This document shows positions 15,310 to 64,000 of a stretch of DNA of 64,000 nt, piece after piece (within the stretch, counting starts at the first letter, position 1; each line of letters opens with the position of its first letter). The notes under the pieces are model-generated. The model saw only the letters and a list, made by a program, of their open reading frames with translations. It was not told the origin of the DNA and ran no database searches. Source of the stretch: Octopus vulgaris (Eukaryota). The translations under genes were made by a program, and so were the position numbers. Location of the stretch: contig OX597818.1 in NCBI GenBank assembly GCA_951406725.2, forward strand, positions 73,656,001 through 73,720,000. The letters are read 5' to 3'.

Positions 15310-16490
15310 TGCTTCACCTCTGACCATTCCAAGGAACGCCATCTCCTGGCCAGTTCCAAGCACTCGATCTTTTTGCGTGCTGTGGACCGGTTTGACTTTT
15401 CCAAGCGTCCCCGACACCTTCACGTCTCCCCAGCCGAACTCTCGGCCTTTCGATGTCTCCAACACCGCACTGACCCCATCATAAAATCGGCCGACTAGGG
15501 TGGAGCCGTGGTGGTGTAGAACGCGGATCTCTACAAGGCGGAGGCCCTAAGACAACTTCAAGACACCTCCTTCTACTGCCCTTGCCCCCCAACCTCACAC
15601 CCAGCTACCAACAAACTGTGTCCTCCATTAATCATGGCATCATCTCCTACTCCTGTCTCGCCCCACTGCATTTAACCTCATTGTCCGCACCCATCGCAAT
15701 CCCACAATTTACTTCCTGCCCCAAATCCACAAAACTAACAGCCCTGGATGCCCCATCATCTCCGCCTGCAACTGCCCCAACGAACTCATCTCCAGATATC
15801 TTGACGTGTCCTTGCCCCCCCCCTGGTGGCTTCCCTCCCCGCTCATATCCATGACACCAACCATGTTCTTCGTGTGTTCAACTCTTTCTCCTTCCCTCTT
15901 GGCCCTTCTAAACTTCTCTTCACTCTTGACATCAAGAGTCTATACACGGAGATCCCTCACCACGTGGGACTCGTGCAATCCAACATTTCCTTGACCTTCG
16001 ACCCAACCACCAACTTGATACATCCACATTCCTTCGTTTCGCTCGCTACGTTGATGCCTAAATATTCTCAACTTTCACTGGACCCACTCTTGAACAATAT
16101 AGTCGTTATATCGGTGCTACCTCACTCTCCTGCAAACATCTAGACTCGTTCCTCTCTTTTGTCAAATCTTTCCACCCTGCCTTTCTCTTCTCCTGCACTA
16201 TTTCCGACATCTCAGTCTCCTTTCTCAACATTTAGGTCAGCATCCATCACTCTACTTTCCCCACCTCCATCTCACACTCTTACCTCAACTTCTCCTCCTC
16301 CCACCTTAAACACACCAAGATCTCCCTTCCCTATTTCCAATCCCTCCGTCTACGCAGGCTCTGCAGTAACTACCGTGGACCGTGCACCTGCTCTCTGCCC
16401 TCGCACCCGCCTCGCCGTCACCCGTCTCCTGTTTCCCTTCATCTACCACCCCACCATCCTACCTCTCCAACGCACCATTCTCCGTGCTGA
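15310..16490 (+). pseudogene. Penelope-like retroelement reverse transcriptase remnant
   Basis: IKSAD*GGAVVV (IKPADKGG motif), YFLPQIHK..PGCPIIS..PNELISRYLD, LFTLDIKSLYTEIPH (RT motif A); stops, frameshifts and deletions. Confidence 0.9.
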
Positions 16491-16584
16491 CCGAATTACA
16501 ATGAAACTACACATCGCATCAACAAAAGTTGGACAAATGAGTAAATATCAAAAATCATCAAAGCTGTAGGGTGAAAAATCGGAC

Positions 16585-16642
16585 ATACTTGGATCAACAT
16601 TTCGAATTTGTGGCTAGTGCCCCAACTCTCCTCAGCAAGCAT
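16585..16642 (-). ncRNA. Type I hammerhead ribozyme with intact catalytic core
   Basis: Minus: ATGCTTG-CTGAGGA-GAGTTGGGGC-ACTA-GCCACAAATTC-GAAA-T-GTTG-A-TC^CAAGTAT; 7-bp stem I, ~9-bp stem II, 2-bp stem III, AUC triplet. Confidence 0.8.
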
Positions 16643-17042
16643 TATCGTATGAAAAACGAACACACATCGTTGTAATCCGTGAAGTTCTGAATTGCCCCGT
16701 GCAATTAATATCAGATGATATTGCCCCGTGCAATTAATATAGATGAGGGCTTTGCCCGTGGCTAAGTGCTGTTTTAACTTTTATTTCCAGCAAATCTGGT
16801 GCTGACTCGATCTCTTAGTGAGCACTGTACTCGTGCCTTTTGGTTTTTAAATTGCGACTAACCACCTAAATAATTTATACACACACACGCGAGCATGCTT
16901 GCATATATATATGTGTGTGTGTATATATATATATATACACACAAACACACACACACACATATATATATATGCAAGCATGCGCGCGTGTGTGTGTGTATAA
17001 TTTATTTAGGTGGTTATATATATATATATATATCCATATATA

Positions 17043-20325: not shown

Positions 20326-22005
20326 ACGGATAGGTGAGGCTGTATGAACCACACAGAAAAAAATATTGTTATGTCTGTTGAAAATTTAATCCTCACGACC
20401 AGAAGAACATTGCCACTAAATAAAAAAAAACTGCCTATAAATATTATTTCATGTGTAAAGTTGGGGACCAAGACAAGCGGTGAGTACTCATATATGCTGC
20501 ACCGTATGTTACTCAAGGCTTTCACAGTGGCTGAATCAAAAACGGAAGGGAATTCCTTTTCCTATACCAATGGTATTGCGTGAGGCAACCAATGATGCCT
20601 CTGACTGTTACTTTTGCATGACTAATATTAGTGGTTTCTCAAAGAAATCCAAAGCAAAAGTTGTGCATGCAGAATGTAAGGCGGCCCTTAAACCGGTACC
20701 ACATGACTTCGAGAACCCTGTCCCAGTTCCCATCTCACATGATTCACTTGAAGACGTTGACACGTCACACAATGAACCCCCTGATTCTCCCATCGACGAC
20801 GTGTACGTAGATCATTCTGAGAAAAATGAGCCACGCTTGTTTAAACAAGAAGATTTGAACGATTTAGTAAGAGACCTCGCATTATCACTGGAGAAAGCAG
20901 AAGTTTTGGGATCCAGGCCGCAGGAACGGAACCTCCTACAGCAAGGTACAAAAATGTCCATTCTCCATTCTCGCCATGAAGGCTTATCTATCTTTTTTCA
21001 AGCAAGACAATAATATTTCTTTCTAACGCTAATGCACTCGTGCAAAAATTAGGACACGTGCATGTGGCTAATGAATGGAGATTGTTTATAAACTGGAGTA
21101 AGGTTAGCCTCAAAGCTTTGTTGTTACATTATGGTAATGAAAAACCTTCAATTCCTGTGGAACATGTTGTCAGTATGGTTGAAACTTATGAATCGATGGA
21201 ACTCATTCTGAATGGAGTTAATTACTCAATTCATAAGTGGAATATCTGTTTTGATTTAAAGGTGATTTCTCTCCTCCCTAGACTGCAGCTGGGATATACC
21301 AAGTATATCGTATACGTGCTTCTTGTATGTTGGGACAGCCGCGATGACAACAATCATTACACTGTAAAAGCCTGGCCTAAAAGCGATGAGCGCATAGTTG
21401 GTCGGTACAACGTGCATCATATGCCACTCGTAAGTCCGCAAAAGCTCTTCCTTCCCCCACTTCACATCAAACTCGGCCTCATGAAAAGCTGCCTAAAAGC
21501 AATGACACCCGATGGTTATGACTTCCAGTACTTAAAAGTAAAATTTAGTGCAGAGACAAGTTGCGCAAAACTGAAAGCAAGCATTTTCATTGGACCCGAG
21601 ATGAGAGAATTGACGTCTGATAACAAATTCAGGGGTAAGGTGTATTTAGTTGTGCTGATGGCATGAAATTCATTCGTGTCAGTCGTGCAGAACTTTCTTG
21701 GAAATAATAGAGCTGAAAAATATGCTGATTTCATAAGCAACATGCTAACAGTGTACGAAAGAGTGGGATGTCGAATGTCCCTTAAAATGCACTTCTTGCA
21801 TTCTCATCTCGATATTTTCTCAATGAATCATGGTGCTGTTCGTGATGAGCATGGTAAGAGGTTACACAAGGACATATTTGAGATGGAAACGAGGTATCAG
21901 GGCCAGTTATATCCACACGTGATGGGTGACTACTGGTGGATCCTACACCGGGCGGCCAGCACGATGCATAAGCACAAGAGCAAGCGCCTTAATCTTAAGA
22001 TCTGA
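20326..22005 (+). pseudogene. Chapaev3-like (CMC superfamily) transposase, frameshifted; element ~20170-22291
   Basis: CKVGDQDK, HICC..C, PMVLRE..DCYFC, WRLFIN.SK.SLKA.LLH, DLKV, LPPLHIKLGLMK, MSLKMHFLHSHLD..GAVRDEHG..YQG..MGDYWW over ORFs 20480-21013, 21040-21666, 21676-22005. Confidence 0.85.
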
Positions 22006-22554: not shown

Positions 22555-23530
22555 TCGGTTTTAAAATTCGGCACAAGGCCAGCTATTTCGATGCATAGGG
22601 TAAAGCGATTACTTCGATCCCAGTGCTCAAATGGTACTTATTTTATCGATCTTAACCCCTTGACGCCGGTATTATCCGAAGCATACGAGTCACTGCTCCG
22701 TTTTGTTTTTATCGAATAAGGCCACAGAAACACACAAGTGCCATTTACATCTACCATTTTATGAAAACGAACTATGTGAAACTATTTATCATAATATGAT
22801 ATGCACAAGTTATTCTGCTAAAATTTTAAAAAATAGCTTGTGTGTGTTACAACTCTAAACACGGTATTATGCAAAGGGACACATCACAGCTCGGGCTACG
22901 ATATCTGGTTTCGCGCCTACGGTGGTGTGAGGTGCATACAACACATTCGCACGCCGGATTCTGCTTTTTTTCCGTTGGTGGTATGAAACGCGGGAAATGT
23001 CCTCGTCGGCTCAGAAGCCGGTTTGGAGTCGGTCGGAAGTGAGGAAGTCCAGGCGTTCGGTAGTTGGACAGCTCGGATACTTCGATAATTTCATTTATCG
23101 GACGCGATGACGAGCGTAAATTCGCTGATGGAGGACCGAAGCGCGAACGTAGAACTTGTAATTGATTTGAAGTCATTTTGAATTATGATGCGTTTTCGCT
23201 GGATACCGTTATTTTTATACCTCCTGTACCAATGCATATGCATGGAAAGTATCCGCATGTCATTGGTCTACTGCTAGTCTCATAACTTGAACGTAACCTA
23301 AAATAGCTAAGATAATGCACGGGACGGAGAGCGTGCGCACATCGAGAGATAAAGTACACGATAGCGAATGTAAACATACGTCAGCCGCTAAAAATCCGTG
23401 ATAGATGTAGGGCAGCTCTACATCGTATATTTACGTTAGCCGCAGGTAGGCAAGCAAAAGTGTGATCGCATATTTGCGTCAACCGTTGTCAAGGGGTTAA
23501 AAAGATAAAAGGGTAAGTCGATCCCAGCAG
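22555..23530 (-). mobile_element. Meta-domain-like SINE split by a piggyBac insertion
   Basis: 22555-22655 (..GGTACTTATTTTATCGATC) and 23497-23530 (AAAGATAAAAGGGTAAGTCGA) rejoin to match 39460-39510. Confidence 0.75.
22656..23496 (-). mobile_element. Non-autonomous piggyBac deletion derivative (841 bp)
   Basis: TTAA TSDs at 22652-22655 and 23497-23500; TIRs CCCCTTGACGCCGGT / CCCCTTGACAACGGT; ORF 22847-23176(-) ends in a piggyBac Cys-rich domain (HFP..CVVC..ETRY..C...LC..PC). Confidence 0.92.
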
Positions 23531-32492: not shown

Positions 32493-33419
32493 CGAGGGGA
32501 AGTCAAAAATTATCCGCACTTTCGCCATAACATAGCACATTGGCTTCTGCGCATGCGCACTTATAGTCGGTACTGTTGTGGTCATATGATCGAAGTTTGA
32601 GCCTGATTACGCCATTTTTCTTCCAGTGAGGGTAATGGTGAACCAGTGAGCTATCATGGCTCTGCCTATCAAATCATCCACGATGAGTTCCGCTTCCATA
32701 GACTCTGTGCAAGACAGGTGCCAAGAGATCTTACTGCATAGCAAAAGCGCAAACGTCACGAGATCTGCCAACGTTTATTCGATCGCTACAACAATGAGGC
32801 GGAGTAACTTTTGAGCAGAATAGTCACTGGAGATGAAACGTGGGTGTATCGTTATGAGGCAAAATCCGAAAGACAGAGTATGGTGTATAAACATCATGGC
32901 TCGCCAGCGCGAAGAAATTCAAGACTCAGTCTTCTGCGAGAAAGGAGAAGCTAACTCTTTTTTGGAGATTCAAAACGGCCATACTAAAGACTCCCTGGAA
33001 AAAAAGGTACGATCAACAGTGCAAGATACAGCACATTGCTACTGGCCAACAAAAAGAAGCGAGCAATTCACACCATATGCTAAAACCTATTGTGGAAAAA
33101 AGTTTTGTTGTTGTACGACAACGCACGCTCACACACGGCCACCCAGACCATTGAAAACATTAACCAATTGTGCTAAAAGCACCCGATGTATTTCAGAACA
33201 TGGCACATCACTGATCTTTCTTCTTCTTTGGTACAAAATGCGAGTGAATCGGCCATGCTGACACTGAAAAGCGAGATAGAAAAAATGCTCCGATGAGGCT
33301 CAACCTTCGAAAACGTGACCACAATAGTATCAACTATAAGCACGTATGAGGAGAAGGCAGTGTGACAATAATAAATGCATGTTATTGAGAAAGTGCGGAT
33401 AATTTTTGACTTCCCCTCC
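32493..33419 (+). mobile_element. Mariner transposon, internally deleted and dead
   Basis: TA|CGAGGGGAAGTCAAAAATTATCCGCACTTTC and matching 30-bp right TIR; CARQVPRDLT, IVTGDETWVY and YDNARSHTA motifs; stops and frameshifts. Confidence 0.93.
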
Positions 33420-44646: not shown

Positions 44647-44727
44647 AATTATAACACGATATTCAATAAAGTTTTCACCGTCAAATTAAAAAAACAACAG
44701 GCAAATCGCAGCACATGAAAATTAACA

Positions 44728-44797
44728 TGTGGCCAACAACATGGTTGTGGCCAACAACATGGTTGTGGCCAACAACATGGTTGTAGCCAACAACATC
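44728..44797. repeat. 18-bp minisatellite (TGTGGCCAACAACATGGT), ~3.5 copies
   Basis: Direct tandem copies. Confidence 0.9.
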
Positions 44798-45839
44798 GTC
44801 TTCCTCATCACCGTCACAACGACACCAAACGGAATCCTCATAAGCATCTTTAGCAGCAGCAGAAGCAGTAACAATAGTATTATCACCATTTTTTACATTC
44901 CCACAGTTCATTTTTCACCGCCGTTCAACTCTGTGTAATTTATATTGTCAGGCGTCCCTACGATGCCGTTCTTCTAATCGATTGACGAGTAAGTTACGTG
45001 CTGTTAACGGATTAGCATTGATGATGTCACCGATCAGAATGAAGATAAATATAAAGGTAAATTAATTGTTTGTCAGAAGCAGGGAGAATATTATTGTCAA
45101 CGAAAGACAGTTACGGGAGCAATACAAATCACGAATTTACAGTTACATAAAATAGCGTTAAAATAGCTATGAACTGTACAATTTATGAAATGCATCTACA
45201 GTATTTACCCATGTAGGCACGTCATCTTGGATAAAGAACCTTCCTCTATAGACCTTTACTCAAAACTGACTACGTGTGCATTGATATGTGTGTGTTTTCC
45301 TGCGCGTAAATAAGAAGACAGAGAGAAAAGAGGGAGAGATGGGGAGAGAAAGAGAGTGTAAATAAGATACAGTGGACACAGAGTTGAGTGCTAGAGCATT
45401 ACCTCATAACTTCCTCGAATTGTAGAGGAACTGGACAAGCAGCAAGTGTATATATACACGCACACACATATATATATATATTGGATTGGATTGTCAATCT
45501 TCCGTCACATATAGGACGAAGGGCTTATCATGTTCTCTCAGACTAATGTGGACTTCGTGAATTTTGACCTTGAGGTAATACAGATTTAATGAGCCTACTC
45601 TGAAACACTGGCCCGACATCGTTTGGCAGTGGAGTGCAGTTTTTATACTCTTATCCACGAATATAAAGGAAATTGGAATAGAGTATTACAAAAGTTTGCC
45701 TCCTTGACACAACCACAATAATCAGGAAAGTATTAGATACCGTAGACTGCAGGTAGCAAGTCCAATACGCATGTAAGACTCCAGGAGTCCCAAGAAAACC
45801 TGGGATGAAATGAATAAATAAATAATAATAATGTTAATA

Positions 45840-61968: not shown

Positions 61969-64000
61969 ATGTTTGACTTTTACTTTGTATTTATACAAGT
62001 TGACTGCAAGTCTCACCTAGAAACCTTAAGAGACAAGTTAGAAGTTCAAGTATTATGCCTAGGGTGTTATATATTTGATTTTTCACATAGCATTGTTCTA
62101 GAGAATGTTTAAGAAAACAGAAAATTATAAGTCTGCTTTAAAATTTGAGATTACATAGACAGTATTTTAAGAAGGATATGGGCAGTTCCCATTAGCTCTA
62201 TCTTTTGAATTTCTGCCATTTTGGGGTTTCCTGGTATCTGAGCTAGGAAGAAATCAGCCCCTTTTGCTATCATTCCGAGGGCACCTATGACAACACGTAT
62301 TGTTTTAATCTTCAGGCTCCAATTTTTCTTTGAAGATCTTTATAATTGCTCAGTTTTTTTGTAGGCCTTGACAGATACATTTATGTCGATTGGGACAGTC
62401 GTCTCGATGAAGAAACATGATTTTCTGTTCAAGTTTTTCAATATACTATCTGACATCTATGTTCTGTCAATTTGTGACGGTGAAGTTCCAGAGGAGCGCG
62501 ATGCAGTTATTTCAAGTACTGGAGGGGGCTAGTGTTCCCACCAGTATTTATCATGGGGCAGGTCTAGGTTTTTGCAAATTACCCAGTGAATATACTGTGC
62601 TGTTCTATCATGCCTGTTGAGATACTCTGTAGGCGCTAGAAGACTACACGTGGAGACAACATGATCAGTGGTTTCATTTTGTTGTTGACATACATGACAT
62701 GTTGGACTACTGGCGTCCTTTAATATGTTGGCCTGATAGTTCCTTGTAGGTAGGCATTGATATTGGGCTGCGATGATAAACCCTTCTGTTTCTGATTTTA
62801 AGCCAGAAGTCACTAAACATTGATGGGTAAGGGCTTTGTCAAAATCAGCATTATTAGCTCTCTTTGGGTATTTGCCACTGAGTGGTTTATCTTGCCATTT
62901 ATCAGTAAGAATATCTAAAGCAGCAGTTTTAGCACAGATTGTCATGCTTTCTAGTACGTCTAATTCTGGAATTTGTCGTATTTGAAATTCACTTAGATAT
63001 TCCTTTGCCTGTTTGATTACTGAGTACGATGCTTTCTTGTTTTCATGCTTTGAGACAAGTTTTAACATGCAGTCATCAGAGTTTTTCAGGTAGGTGCCTA
63101 GGCCAATTGTGGCAATCTTCATTGTTAATTCTAGTTGTAAATGTCCACGGCCGCCTTCTTTTCTTGGGAGATAAAGTCGGTCTACATCTGCAATAGGGTG
63201 CTGCATTCAGTGCATTAGCAACAATGTGCGTATATTTGAACAGCTAATGATATTGAAACTTTAAGGCACGACCGGCATGGCTAAAGTATTGATCGTTTCG
63301 ATCCTGTTCCTTGCATTCAGCTTTGGCTTGAGAATTGCCCTTACCCTGCGATAATATTCTCTTCTGATCTTTTTCCTCATCACTGAATTCTGATTTCGTC
63401 CCCTTCAAATGTCCTTAGATATTTGTAGCTCTCTGCTGGTTCAAACTCCTTTATGACATTCTGATGGTCAAAATTAACGTTGAATGTTTCTGTCATTTTT
63501 TTCCTTTGATGGAGGTAGTTTTTGCACATTTATCAAGGCCAAATTGCATCCTGATGTCATCAATGAATTGTTTAGCAATCGCTAGTAAGCCGTGTTGTTT
63601 TAAGAATTGCTTGTAAGCTCTCTTGGTTTAGCAATTGCTAGTAAACCCTGTTGGTCACTTTTTTGGAAAGAGCTTTAAATCATCCAGGTAGAAGAGATTA
63701 TTAATATTTTTTTCAAACATTTTATAGCCATATTGTACATCTTTGTGCAGTTTTAAAAGTGGTATCAAGGCTAGACAAAAGAGGAGTGCTGATAGAGAGG
63801 CACCCTGGAAAATGCCACATTAAATTATTACGTCTCCAGCATTAAGCGTTTCATTGTCACTGTTCAATGTCAGTGTGGTTCTCCATGATCTCTTACTTTT
63901 AGACAAGAACTTTCGAGTGGGTGCTATTTTGCACATTTCCAGATATTTCTTAATCCAGATATGTGGTAAACTGTCAAAATGATTTTTATAGTCTACCCAG
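61967..64000 (-). pseudogene. R4/Dong-clade non-LTR retrotransposon (RT, CCHC finger, restriction-like endonuclease), disrupted; continues past the window edge
   Basis: GIFQG.SLS.LLF, FYLDDLK, HPIADVDRLYLPRKEGGRG, ETEGFIIAAQ, CHVC..ETTDHVVSTC, RHDR, MTVP.D..K..NYKDL, QKI.LMGTAHIL; 3' end abuts (TAA)n at 61891-61966. Confidence 0.92.

What the first reader, a model, noticed from the sequence alone, without database searches (positions are those of the whole stretch)
16585..16642. Apparently intact, potentially self-cleaving hammerhead ribozyme
Seen: all conserved core nucleotides (CUGAGGA, G10.1-C11.1, GAAA, U16.1, C17), a 7-bp stem I (AUGCUUG/CAAGUAU), a ~9-bp stem II with ACUA loop and a 2-bp stem III. 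Predicted cleavage is on the minus strand between 16592 and 16591. It lies ~100 bp past the end of a plus-strand Penelope RT remnant, in the opposite orientation. Inference: it could cut any minus-strand transcript (e.g. a host intron), although the short stem III may need dimerisation.
Basis: partly seen in the sequence, partly recalled or inferred. Interest (0 to 1): 0.75.

Follow-up and report, generated by a model that had tools for sequence, protein, structure and literature searches.

The report
Decayed hammerhead ribozyme from retrozyme repeat
This is a genuine self-cutting-RNA motif (a hammerhead), but it is one worn, truncated copy of a common protein-less jumping repeat, and it has lost the short palindrome that its relatives likely use to pair up and cut, so it is probably inactive and ordinary.

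Summary
The type I hammerhead is there: minus strand, 16642-16585, all 14 core positions intact, predicted cut 16592/16591. It is not part of the adjacent reverse-transcriptase remnant. It lies in a 210-nt fragment of an old, dispersed, non-coding repeat of about 475 nt (289 first-look candidates). That repeat shows Penelope-type insertion marks: partial tandems, inversions and microsatellite flanks. In the family, stem III is the self-complementary AUCAUGAU (16 of 28 copies), the known layout of dimer-cleaving hammerheads. This copy reads AUGUUGAU: 4 of 8 pairs in a homodimer, +4.6 versus -7.2 kcal/mol. No complementary partner turned up among 61 pattern matches. 'Apparently intact' therefore holds only for the core. 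One result points the other way: the same two changes make the monomer fold less disfavoured than in relatives, though still at most about 0.2% populated. No host gene was found within about 50 kb of the window. Cleavage is untested. The scan already noted similar retrozyme families elsewhere in this genome. Verdict: ordinary member of a known kind, probably dead.

The parts
16585..16642 (-). Type I hammerhead motif: core intact, stem III palindrome broken
16629..16635 (-). CUGAGGA catalytic core strand (C3-A9)
16604..16628 (-). Stem II: 5 bp + internal loop + 3 bp, ACUA loop; one G-C pair is G-U here, and there is an extra C at 16610
16593..16600 (-). Stem III / loop 3 octamer AUGUUGAU; the commonest family form is the palindrome AUCAUGAU
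16591..16592 (-). Predicted cleavage bond, after C17 (AUC triplet)
   Evidence: hammerhead consensus numbering as in PMC4209133
16490..16699 (-). Fragment (positions about 154-365 of 474) of the non-coding repeat 'family A'; most of its 3' part is missing
15322..16487 (+). Remnant of a different, high-copy C-rich Penelope-like RT family; stops, frameshifts, two internal deletions (about 110 and 95 bp), no endonuclease part
16692..16749 (.). 29-bp tandem duplication across the family A / family B junction
   Evidence: read directly
16739..16880 (+). Fragment of a second hammerhead-bearing repeat ('family B'); its own hammerhead is absent from this copy

Best explanation
The motif is a real type I hammerhead inside a truncated copy of an old, dispersed, non-coding repeat of about 475 nt that was likely spread by Penelope-like retrotransposon proteins, and this copy is probably inactive because two substitutions broke the palindrome that the family likely needs to cut as a dimer. 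Shown: the motif, the family, the unit length, the insertion marks, the two substitutions. Inferred from published work on Penelope and retrozyme hammerheads: two hammerheads on a tandem transcript swap strands, the AUCAUGAU octamers form an 8-bp stem III, and each cuts after C17 to release unit-length RNA that is reverse-transcribed and inserted at (TA)n-type repeats. Predicted from folding: in a lone family copy the palindrome pairs with the CUGA core and keeps the monomer off. Inferred for this copy: after insertion it drifted (about 15% from the family majority) and lost its 3' part where it now abuts an unrelated RT remnant.
For: Family: 289 first-look candidates, 40 scored; 37 exact core-plus-palindrome matches and 0 control matches. 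Direct-repeat offsets of 470-505 nt in six loci (L058, L062, L131, L132, L140, L147); L090/L132 is a tandem with two hammerheads 485 nt apart. Unit 34% GC, longest ATG frame 44 aa. Of 27 loci, 12 carry an inverted piece and 25 have a microsatellite flank, against 33% of background pairs. Structure: 88.5% of cells paired in 27 copies; stem II pair 27-49 is G-C in 13 and A-U in 12; covariation score reached by 0 of 500 shuffles (relatedness inflates this). Palindrome perfect in 16 of 28 full-length copies; the window copy has the joint-lowest self-pairing, 4 of 8. Double-hammerhead energy relative to two monomers: +2.4 kcal/mol here, against -3.2 to -6.6 in 5 of 8 palindrome-intact copies. Decay: 17 of 28 copies have a core lesion; this copy differs from the family majority at 26 of 168 non-core columns. 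No motif with the complementary octamer among 61 genome matches, and no family A partner in the window or 50 kb on each side. Literature: single minimal Penelope hammerheads showed no cleavage and dimers only low cleavage (PMC4209133).
Against: All 14 core positions are intact: P about 0.09 at this copy's non-core divergence, although 6 of 17 copies share this against 2.1 expected. Stem I is a full 7 of 7 and extends further. The monomer hammerhead fold is only 2.4 kcal/mol above the minimum-energy fold here, against 5.1-16.9 in 10 relatives, and GUUG ranks 7th of 256 loops in the short context (55th in a longer one). An axolotl hammerhead with a 2-bp stem III and a tetraloop cleaved 22% in 1 h as a monomer (PMC7229834). 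The dimer-energy test is not clean: 3 of 8 palindrome-intact copies also came out positive (+2.6, +2.8, +17.0). No autonomous parent element was identified. No cleavage assay exists.
Confidence: 0.8

Rival explanations
1. Same origin, but this copy keeps weak activity as a monomer: the two loop changes removed the palindrome and also the inhibitory pairing with the core, leaving a 2-bp stem III with a GUUG loop that would cut slowly in any minus-strand transcript.
For: Core intact, stem I 7 of 7. Monomer fold 3.8-10.0 kcal/mol above the ensemble over 30 sequence contexts, against 7.2-13.2 for four palindromic relatives, leaving out two values of 72-79 in the longest context of an inverted-repeat locus. 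Precedent for partial monomer cleavage with a 2-bp stem III (PMC7229834).
Against: Even the best context gives about 0.2% occupancy. The pair next to the core is U-A. No loop 1 / loop 2 tertiary contact was identified. No host gene was found. Core retention is not exceptional among copies (11 of 28).
Confidence: 0.13
2. The hammerhead is the inverted pseudo-LTR of the neighbouring plus-strand RT element, so both belong to one insertion.
For: 98 bp apart and in opposite orientation. Inverted terminal copies are typical of Penelope-like elements (PMC8557442).
Against: None of 94 RT-family matches extends past window 16488. No family A module in 14 RT-family loci or in 8 of them extended to about 9 kb. 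No RT-remnant homology in family A loci. The two pieces meet tail to tail with both 3' ends missing, whereas published inversions lie at the 5' end.
Confidence: 0.03
3. Family A is simply the pseudo-LTR of an extinct autonomous Hydra-clade element, not a free-standing retrozyme, and the window holds a solo remnant of it.
For: In L062 an inverted family A copy runs directly into a 5'-truncated ORF that is 56% identical to intact Hydra-type ORFs, and a sense copy lies about 1.1 kb past that ORF. Young Hydra-type elements here carry a similar long-stem-II, palindromic hammerhead about 270 nt before the ORF.
Against: This direct junction was seen at one locus only; L082 has a short ORF piece about 0.9 kb away. 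The inverted L062 copy itself has the 481-nt period, and the two L062 copies are only about 73% alike. No other locus among the 30 pattern loci has such an ORF within 1.5 kb. The conclusion for the window copy (dimer palindrome broken) would not change.
Confidence: 0.15
4. A chance match to the hammerhead consensus.
For: No Rfam hammerhead hit; folding z-score +0.58.
Against: 0.02-0.07 expected per window; dozens of paralogues with the same core and compensatory stem changes.
Confidence: 0.01

Closest known systems
Type I hammerheads of metazoan Penelope-like elements (Cervera and de la Pena 2014, PMC4209133; parts 1-2 of 4 read: abstract, results, discussion, start of methods)
   Same: Type I topology, full core, G10.1-C11.1, long helix II, very short helix III with a palindromic loop, mostly dispersed single copies, high sequence variation, pairs on opposite strands.
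   Different: [quoted passage not shown]
Metazoan non-LTR retrozymes (Cervera and de la Pena 2020, PMC7229834, passages seen; Li, Clavereau and Pollet 2026, 10.64898/2026.07.22.740005, part 1 of 5 and passages seen)
   Same: Non-coding, low-GC (34%) unit with one type I hammerhead; monomers and a tandem dimer; link to Penelope-like elements.
   Different: Unit of 470-490 nt, a little above the 150-450 bp quoted; mostly old, truncated or 1.1-1.6-unit copies, no long arrays seen; circular RNA not tested; the window copy is under half a unit.
Hydra-clade Penelope-like elements (Craig et al. 2021, PMC8557442; section 11 read in full plus passages)
   Same: Intact ORFs in this genome show RWK/RWR, DKT, CxCx5C, CxxC and CxH, and carry canonical hammerheads; (TA)n targeting matches the family A flanks; one family A copy abuts such an ORF.
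   Different: Family A is non-coding and its hammerhead sequence differs from those of the young Hydra-type families found; mobilisation by Hydra proteins is inferred from one junction.
Axolotl HHR_Amex2 (PMC7229834, passage seen)
   Same: [quoted passage not shown]
   Different: Amex2 is a high-copy tandem family with tested activity (22% in 1 h as monomer, better as dimer); here the loop is a private mutation in a solitary fragment, untested.

Membership tests
Type I hammerhead ribozyme | Core CUGANGA, GAAA and U16.1-H17 around three helices, ends in helix I | tested here: met
Type I hammerhead ribozyme | Helices supported by covariation among relatives | tested here: met
   compensatory changes in stems I and II; relatedness inflates the shuffle test
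Type I hammerhead ribozyme | Match to an Rfam hammerhead model | tested here: not met
   an intact family copy also fails, so not discriminating
Type I hammerhead ribozyme | Mg2+-dependent self-cleavage after position 17 | not testable with these tools
   needs an in vitro assay
Dimer-cleaving Penelope-type hammerhead | Palindromic helix III / loop 3 (family) | tested here: met
   16 of 28 copies perfect; 47 of 61 pattern matches have the CAUG loop
Dimer-cleaving Penelope-type hammerhead | Palindromic helix III / loop 3 (this copy) | tested here: not met
   4 of 8 pairs, +4.6 kcal/mol
Dimer-cleaving Penelope-type hammerhead | A second compatible hammerhead nearby on the same strand | tested here: not met
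   the only intact neighbour found (22 kb away) has different stem I and stem III arms
Non-LTR retrozyme | Non-coding, low-GC unit of a few hundred nt with a type I hammerhead | tested here: met
   474 nt, 34% GC, longest ATG frame 44 aa
Non-LTR retrozyme | Tandem units, each with a hammerhead | tested here: inconclusive
   one two-hammerhead tandem (L090/L132) and several partial tandems in the family; not met by the window copy
Non-LTR retrozyme | Expressed as unit-length linear and circular RNA | not testable with these tools
   only contigs of guessed RNA runs were available
Penelope-like insertion pattern | Variable 5' truncation, partial tandems, inverted adjacent copy, microsatellite targets | tested here: met
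   12 of 27 inverted, 25 of 27 microsatellite-flanked against 33% background; the window copy itself shows neither within 60 nt
Pseudo-LTR of the adjacent RT element | Same module flanks other copies of that RT family | tested here: not met
Hydra clade (as mobilising partner) | Family A physically linked to ORFs with RWK, DKT, CxCx5C | tested here: inconclusive
   one direct junction (L062); no phylogenetic tree built

The most novel reading that the evidence does not exclude
Two neighbouring substitutions switched a dimer-only retroelement hammerhead into a monomer-active one: they destroyed the palindrome and with it the pairing that locks the core in a lone copy. The copy was then kept as a solitary cutter of a minus-strand host RNA. 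This would be a natural example of how a selfish, self-silenced ribozyme becomes a stand-alone one.
Probability: 0.06. Interest if true: 0.6.

Novelty: new member of a known kind. Interest (0 to 1): 0.14.

Why it matters
For this copy, little: animal genomes with Penelope-like elements hold hundreds to thousands of such solitary hammerheads (PMC4209133). The case shows that an intact core is not enough to call a copy active, because the stem III palindrome has to be read against paralogues. Two side points could interest specialists. Folding predicts that the palindrome doubles as a monomer off-switch by pairing with the CUGA core. One locus joins this non-coding repeat head to head with a truncated Hydra-type ORF, which hints at the enzyme that spread it. 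If the copy did cut as a monomer in a host transcript, it would be a neat natural dimer-to-monomer switch.

Tried and rejected
Rfam scans: no hammerhead hit at any threshold tried. Host gene search: 520 low-repeat stop-to-stop frames of 55 aa or more were found in the window plus 50 kb each side; the top 140 by a composition score were scanned against Pfam (135, 5). All hits above the curated cut-off were transposon domains. A weak Cu2_monooxygen hit at 44684-44914 came from a short tandem repeat and was rejected. Small or divergent exons would be missed, so an intron is not excluded. RNA: no RNA holder listed. One contig of a guessed-RNA run (X2, depth 4.1) covers 16354-16599 and so runs 8 nt past the predicted cut; contigs show neither strand nor ends, it may be DNA, and X3, X15 and X6 gave no cover of the motif. 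This is no evidence either way. The 'wrap' count (16 of 27) was discarded because it depends on where the unit was cut. Naiad was considered for the L062 ORF and rejected: its endonuclease is C-terminal. A GATGA-GGGC-TTT-GCCC stretch at 16742-16758 (+) looked like a second hammerhead but has no GAAA and lies in family B sequence downstream of that family's real hammerhead. Lunse et al. 2017 on dimer cleavage was not held; I saw only its citation and a review's summary (PMC6765202 passages). No supplements were read; the min-HHR family lists in the supplements of PMC4209133 and PMC8557442 might already include this family. A paper search for 'hammerhead ribozyme' with 'octopus' (the organism is a guess) returned nothing on this family in 4 listings. 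Look-ups of earlier findings by place and by sequence returned nothing. Genome-wide copy number was not obtained; counts are lower bounds.

Full report
Observation. On the minus strand the window reads AUGCUUG (16642-16636), CUGAGGA, a 25-nt stem II closed by G10.1-C11.1, GAAA, UGUUGA, UC, CAAGUAU (16591-16585). This is a type I hammerhead with the predicted cut between 16592 and 16591. A descriptor scan finds only this site in the 64 kb, with 0.07 (loose) or 0.02 (strict) hits expected per simulated window. Rfam gives no hammerhead hit, but also none for a palindrome-intact relative. The isolated 58-mer folds no better than shuffles. Contigs of two public runs span 16455-16880 with two differences, both outside the motif.

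The family. A search of the own genome with 16500-16860 split into two groups of matches: one to 16502-16699, with the hammerhead, and one to 16739-16860. The first group (family A) gave 289 first-look candidates, 40 scored. A profile search of the fetched loci gave 36 distinct hits; 8 truncated or rearranged rows were dropped and 28 were scored. An exact pattern for core plus palindrome has 37 matches genome-wide and 0 control matches; these include sister families with other stem II sequences. Direct repeats inside loci have offsets of 470-505 nt, and L090 has two hammerheads 485 nt apart. One period of the L058 copy is 474 nt, 34% GC, with no ATG frame over 44 aa. Of 27 distinct loci, 12 have an inverted piece next to the main copy and 25 have a microsatellite within 60 nt of an end, against 33% for random flank pairs. 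The 5' ends vary, while seven 3' ends cluster at unit positions 124-130. These are the marks described for Penelope-like insertions: 5' truncation, partial tandems, adjacent inverted copies and microsatellite bias (PMC8557442 passages). The window holds only unit positions 154-365.

Structure. On 27 aligned copies (the 28 without L089) the hammerhead fold is paired in 88.5% of cells. Pair 27-49 in stem II is G-C in 13 and A-U in 12 copies, and pair 15-66 in stem I is U-A in 16 and C-G in 5. The covariation score is reached by 0 of 500 shuffles and drops under sliding controls. Two of the five measures were not above shuffles (206 and 180 of 500), and subfamily relatedness inflates the rest, so this is support, not a probability.

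Stem III decides the reading. In the family, A15.1 to U16.1 is the octamer AUCAUGAU in 16 of 28 copies. It is self-complementary (8 bp, -7.2 kcal/mol between two strands) and would close only a 2-nt loop within one strand. Published metazoan hammerheads of this build cleave poorly alone and better as dimers (PMC4209133; PMC6765202 passage). The window copy reads AUGUUGAU (C>G at 16598, A>U at 16597): 4 of 8 pairs and +4.6 kcal/mol as a homodimer, and -0.2 with a family-type partner. Whole double-hammerhead structures are 2.4 kcal/mol worse than two free monomers for this copy and 3.2-6.6 better for 5 of 8 palindrome-intact copies; the other three came out worse. Among 61 genome matches to a pattern allowing 16 loop variants, 47 have CAUG and none has the loop complementary to this copy. 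The family model finds no second copy in the window. In the 50 kb on each side it finds a degenerate inverted pair and one intact hammerhead of another family with incompatible arms.

The result against my reading. In palindrome-bearing copies the minimum-energy monomer pairs the palindrome with the CUGA core, and the hammerhead fold lies 5.1-16.9 kcal/mol higher in 10 relatives. In the window copy the gap is 2.4. In ensemble terms the gap is 3.8 kcal/mol (0.2%) in a 76-nt context, where GUUG ranks 7th of 256 loops, and 7.3 in a 160-nt context, rank 55. It is 3.8-10.0 across 30 contexts. A 2-bp helix III with a tetraloop gave 22% monomer cleavage in an axolotl motif (PMC7229834 passage). Slow monomer cleavage therefore cannot be excluded. 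The intact core is weak evidence of selection: P about 0.09 at this copy's 15.5% divergence, but 6 of 17 copies have all 14 core positions and 11 of 28 pass the core test, and copies were found with hammerhead-containing queries.

Neighbours. The plus-strand remnant (15322-16487) belongs to a C-rich, high-copy family (2423 candidates, 40 scored). It has stops, frameshifts and two internal deletions, and no match extends past 16488. [quoted passage not shown] None of 14 such loci, 8 extended to about 9 kb, holds the family A module. The remnant and the module meet tail to tail with both 3' ends gone, which I read as a later deletion (inference). On the other side, 16739-16880 is a piece of family B, whose relatives carry their own hammerhead with a longer palindrome just upstream of the part kept here. 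A and B meet head to head under a 29-bp duplication; a deletion and a mixed 5' inversion both fit. At L062 an inverted family A copy runs directly into a 5'-truncated ORF 56% identical to intact 840-960 aa ORFs with the Hydra-clade motifs. This single junction, with the shared (TA)n bias, makes Hydra-type proteins the best guess for the mobiliser.

Host context. Pfam scans of the top 140 of 520 candidate frames over 164 kb gave only transposon domains above cut-off. No RNA evidence could be obtained either way.

Comparison and verdict. It works like the dimer-cleaving type I hammerheads of Penelope-like elements and non-LTR retrozymes. The family meets the sequence and structure criteria; activity and circular RNA are untested. 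This copy fails the palindrome and partner criteria. A Penelope origin of animal retrozymes is in print (10.64898/2026.07.22.740005). Earlier notes of this scan describe younger 359-nt and 485-nt retrozyme families in this genome (unchecked by me; my reading was written down before I saw them). New member of a known kind, most likely a dead copy; interest 0.14.

Noticed in passing
L171:4180-4222 (minus strand; about 22 kb from the motif, left of the window): An apparently intact canonical type I hammerhead of another family: 6-bp stem I, CUGAUGA, 5-bp stem II closed by A-U, near-palindromic stem III ACUCGGGU.
   Followed up: partly
L062:1104-3400 (G000:C13:17473600-17475900): Inverted 1.1-unit family A copy joined directly, head to head, to a 5'-truncated Hydra-type ORF; may record a template switch between a retrozyme RNA and its autonomous partner. 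One case only.
   Followed up: partly
L117, L119, L121 (e.g. L117:2551-5344): Young, intact Hydra-type Penelope-like elements (about 840 aa; a second family of about 955 aa in L122-L126). The first has a hammerhead with palindrome CAATTG about 270 nt before the ORF, and L119 has a 6.3-kb tandem period.
   Followed up: partly
window 16739-16880 (+) and L009, L014, L017, L022: Family B: another hammerhead-bearing dispersed repeat, with a short stem II and a 10-nt palindrome in stem III.
   Followed up: partly
window 16859-17016: Long inverted repeat made of the family B 3' end and (CA)n/(TA)n; it draws many spurious microRNA matches in Rfam.
   Followed up: no
L008:821 (-), L013:2803 (+), L012:2638 (-), L123:7553 (+), L122:2596 (+): Further hammerhead families met by chance in flanks, several with very long stem II and palindromic stem III.
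   Followed up: no
L168:7980-8391: Inverted pair of degenerate relatives of the family A hammerhead, both with core lesions.
   Followed up: partly
window 20459-22005 (+), 22847-23182 (-), 32824-33261 (+), 62529-63206 (-): Long frames that look like broken DNA-transposon and LINE remnants (labels recalled, not from a call); Pfam gave only a sub-threshold zf-RVT hit for the last.
   Followed up: partly
L167:4631-7357 (-): 909-aa open frame with RVT_1 (E 1.8e-30), a LINE-type element about 43 kb left of the window.
   Followed up: no
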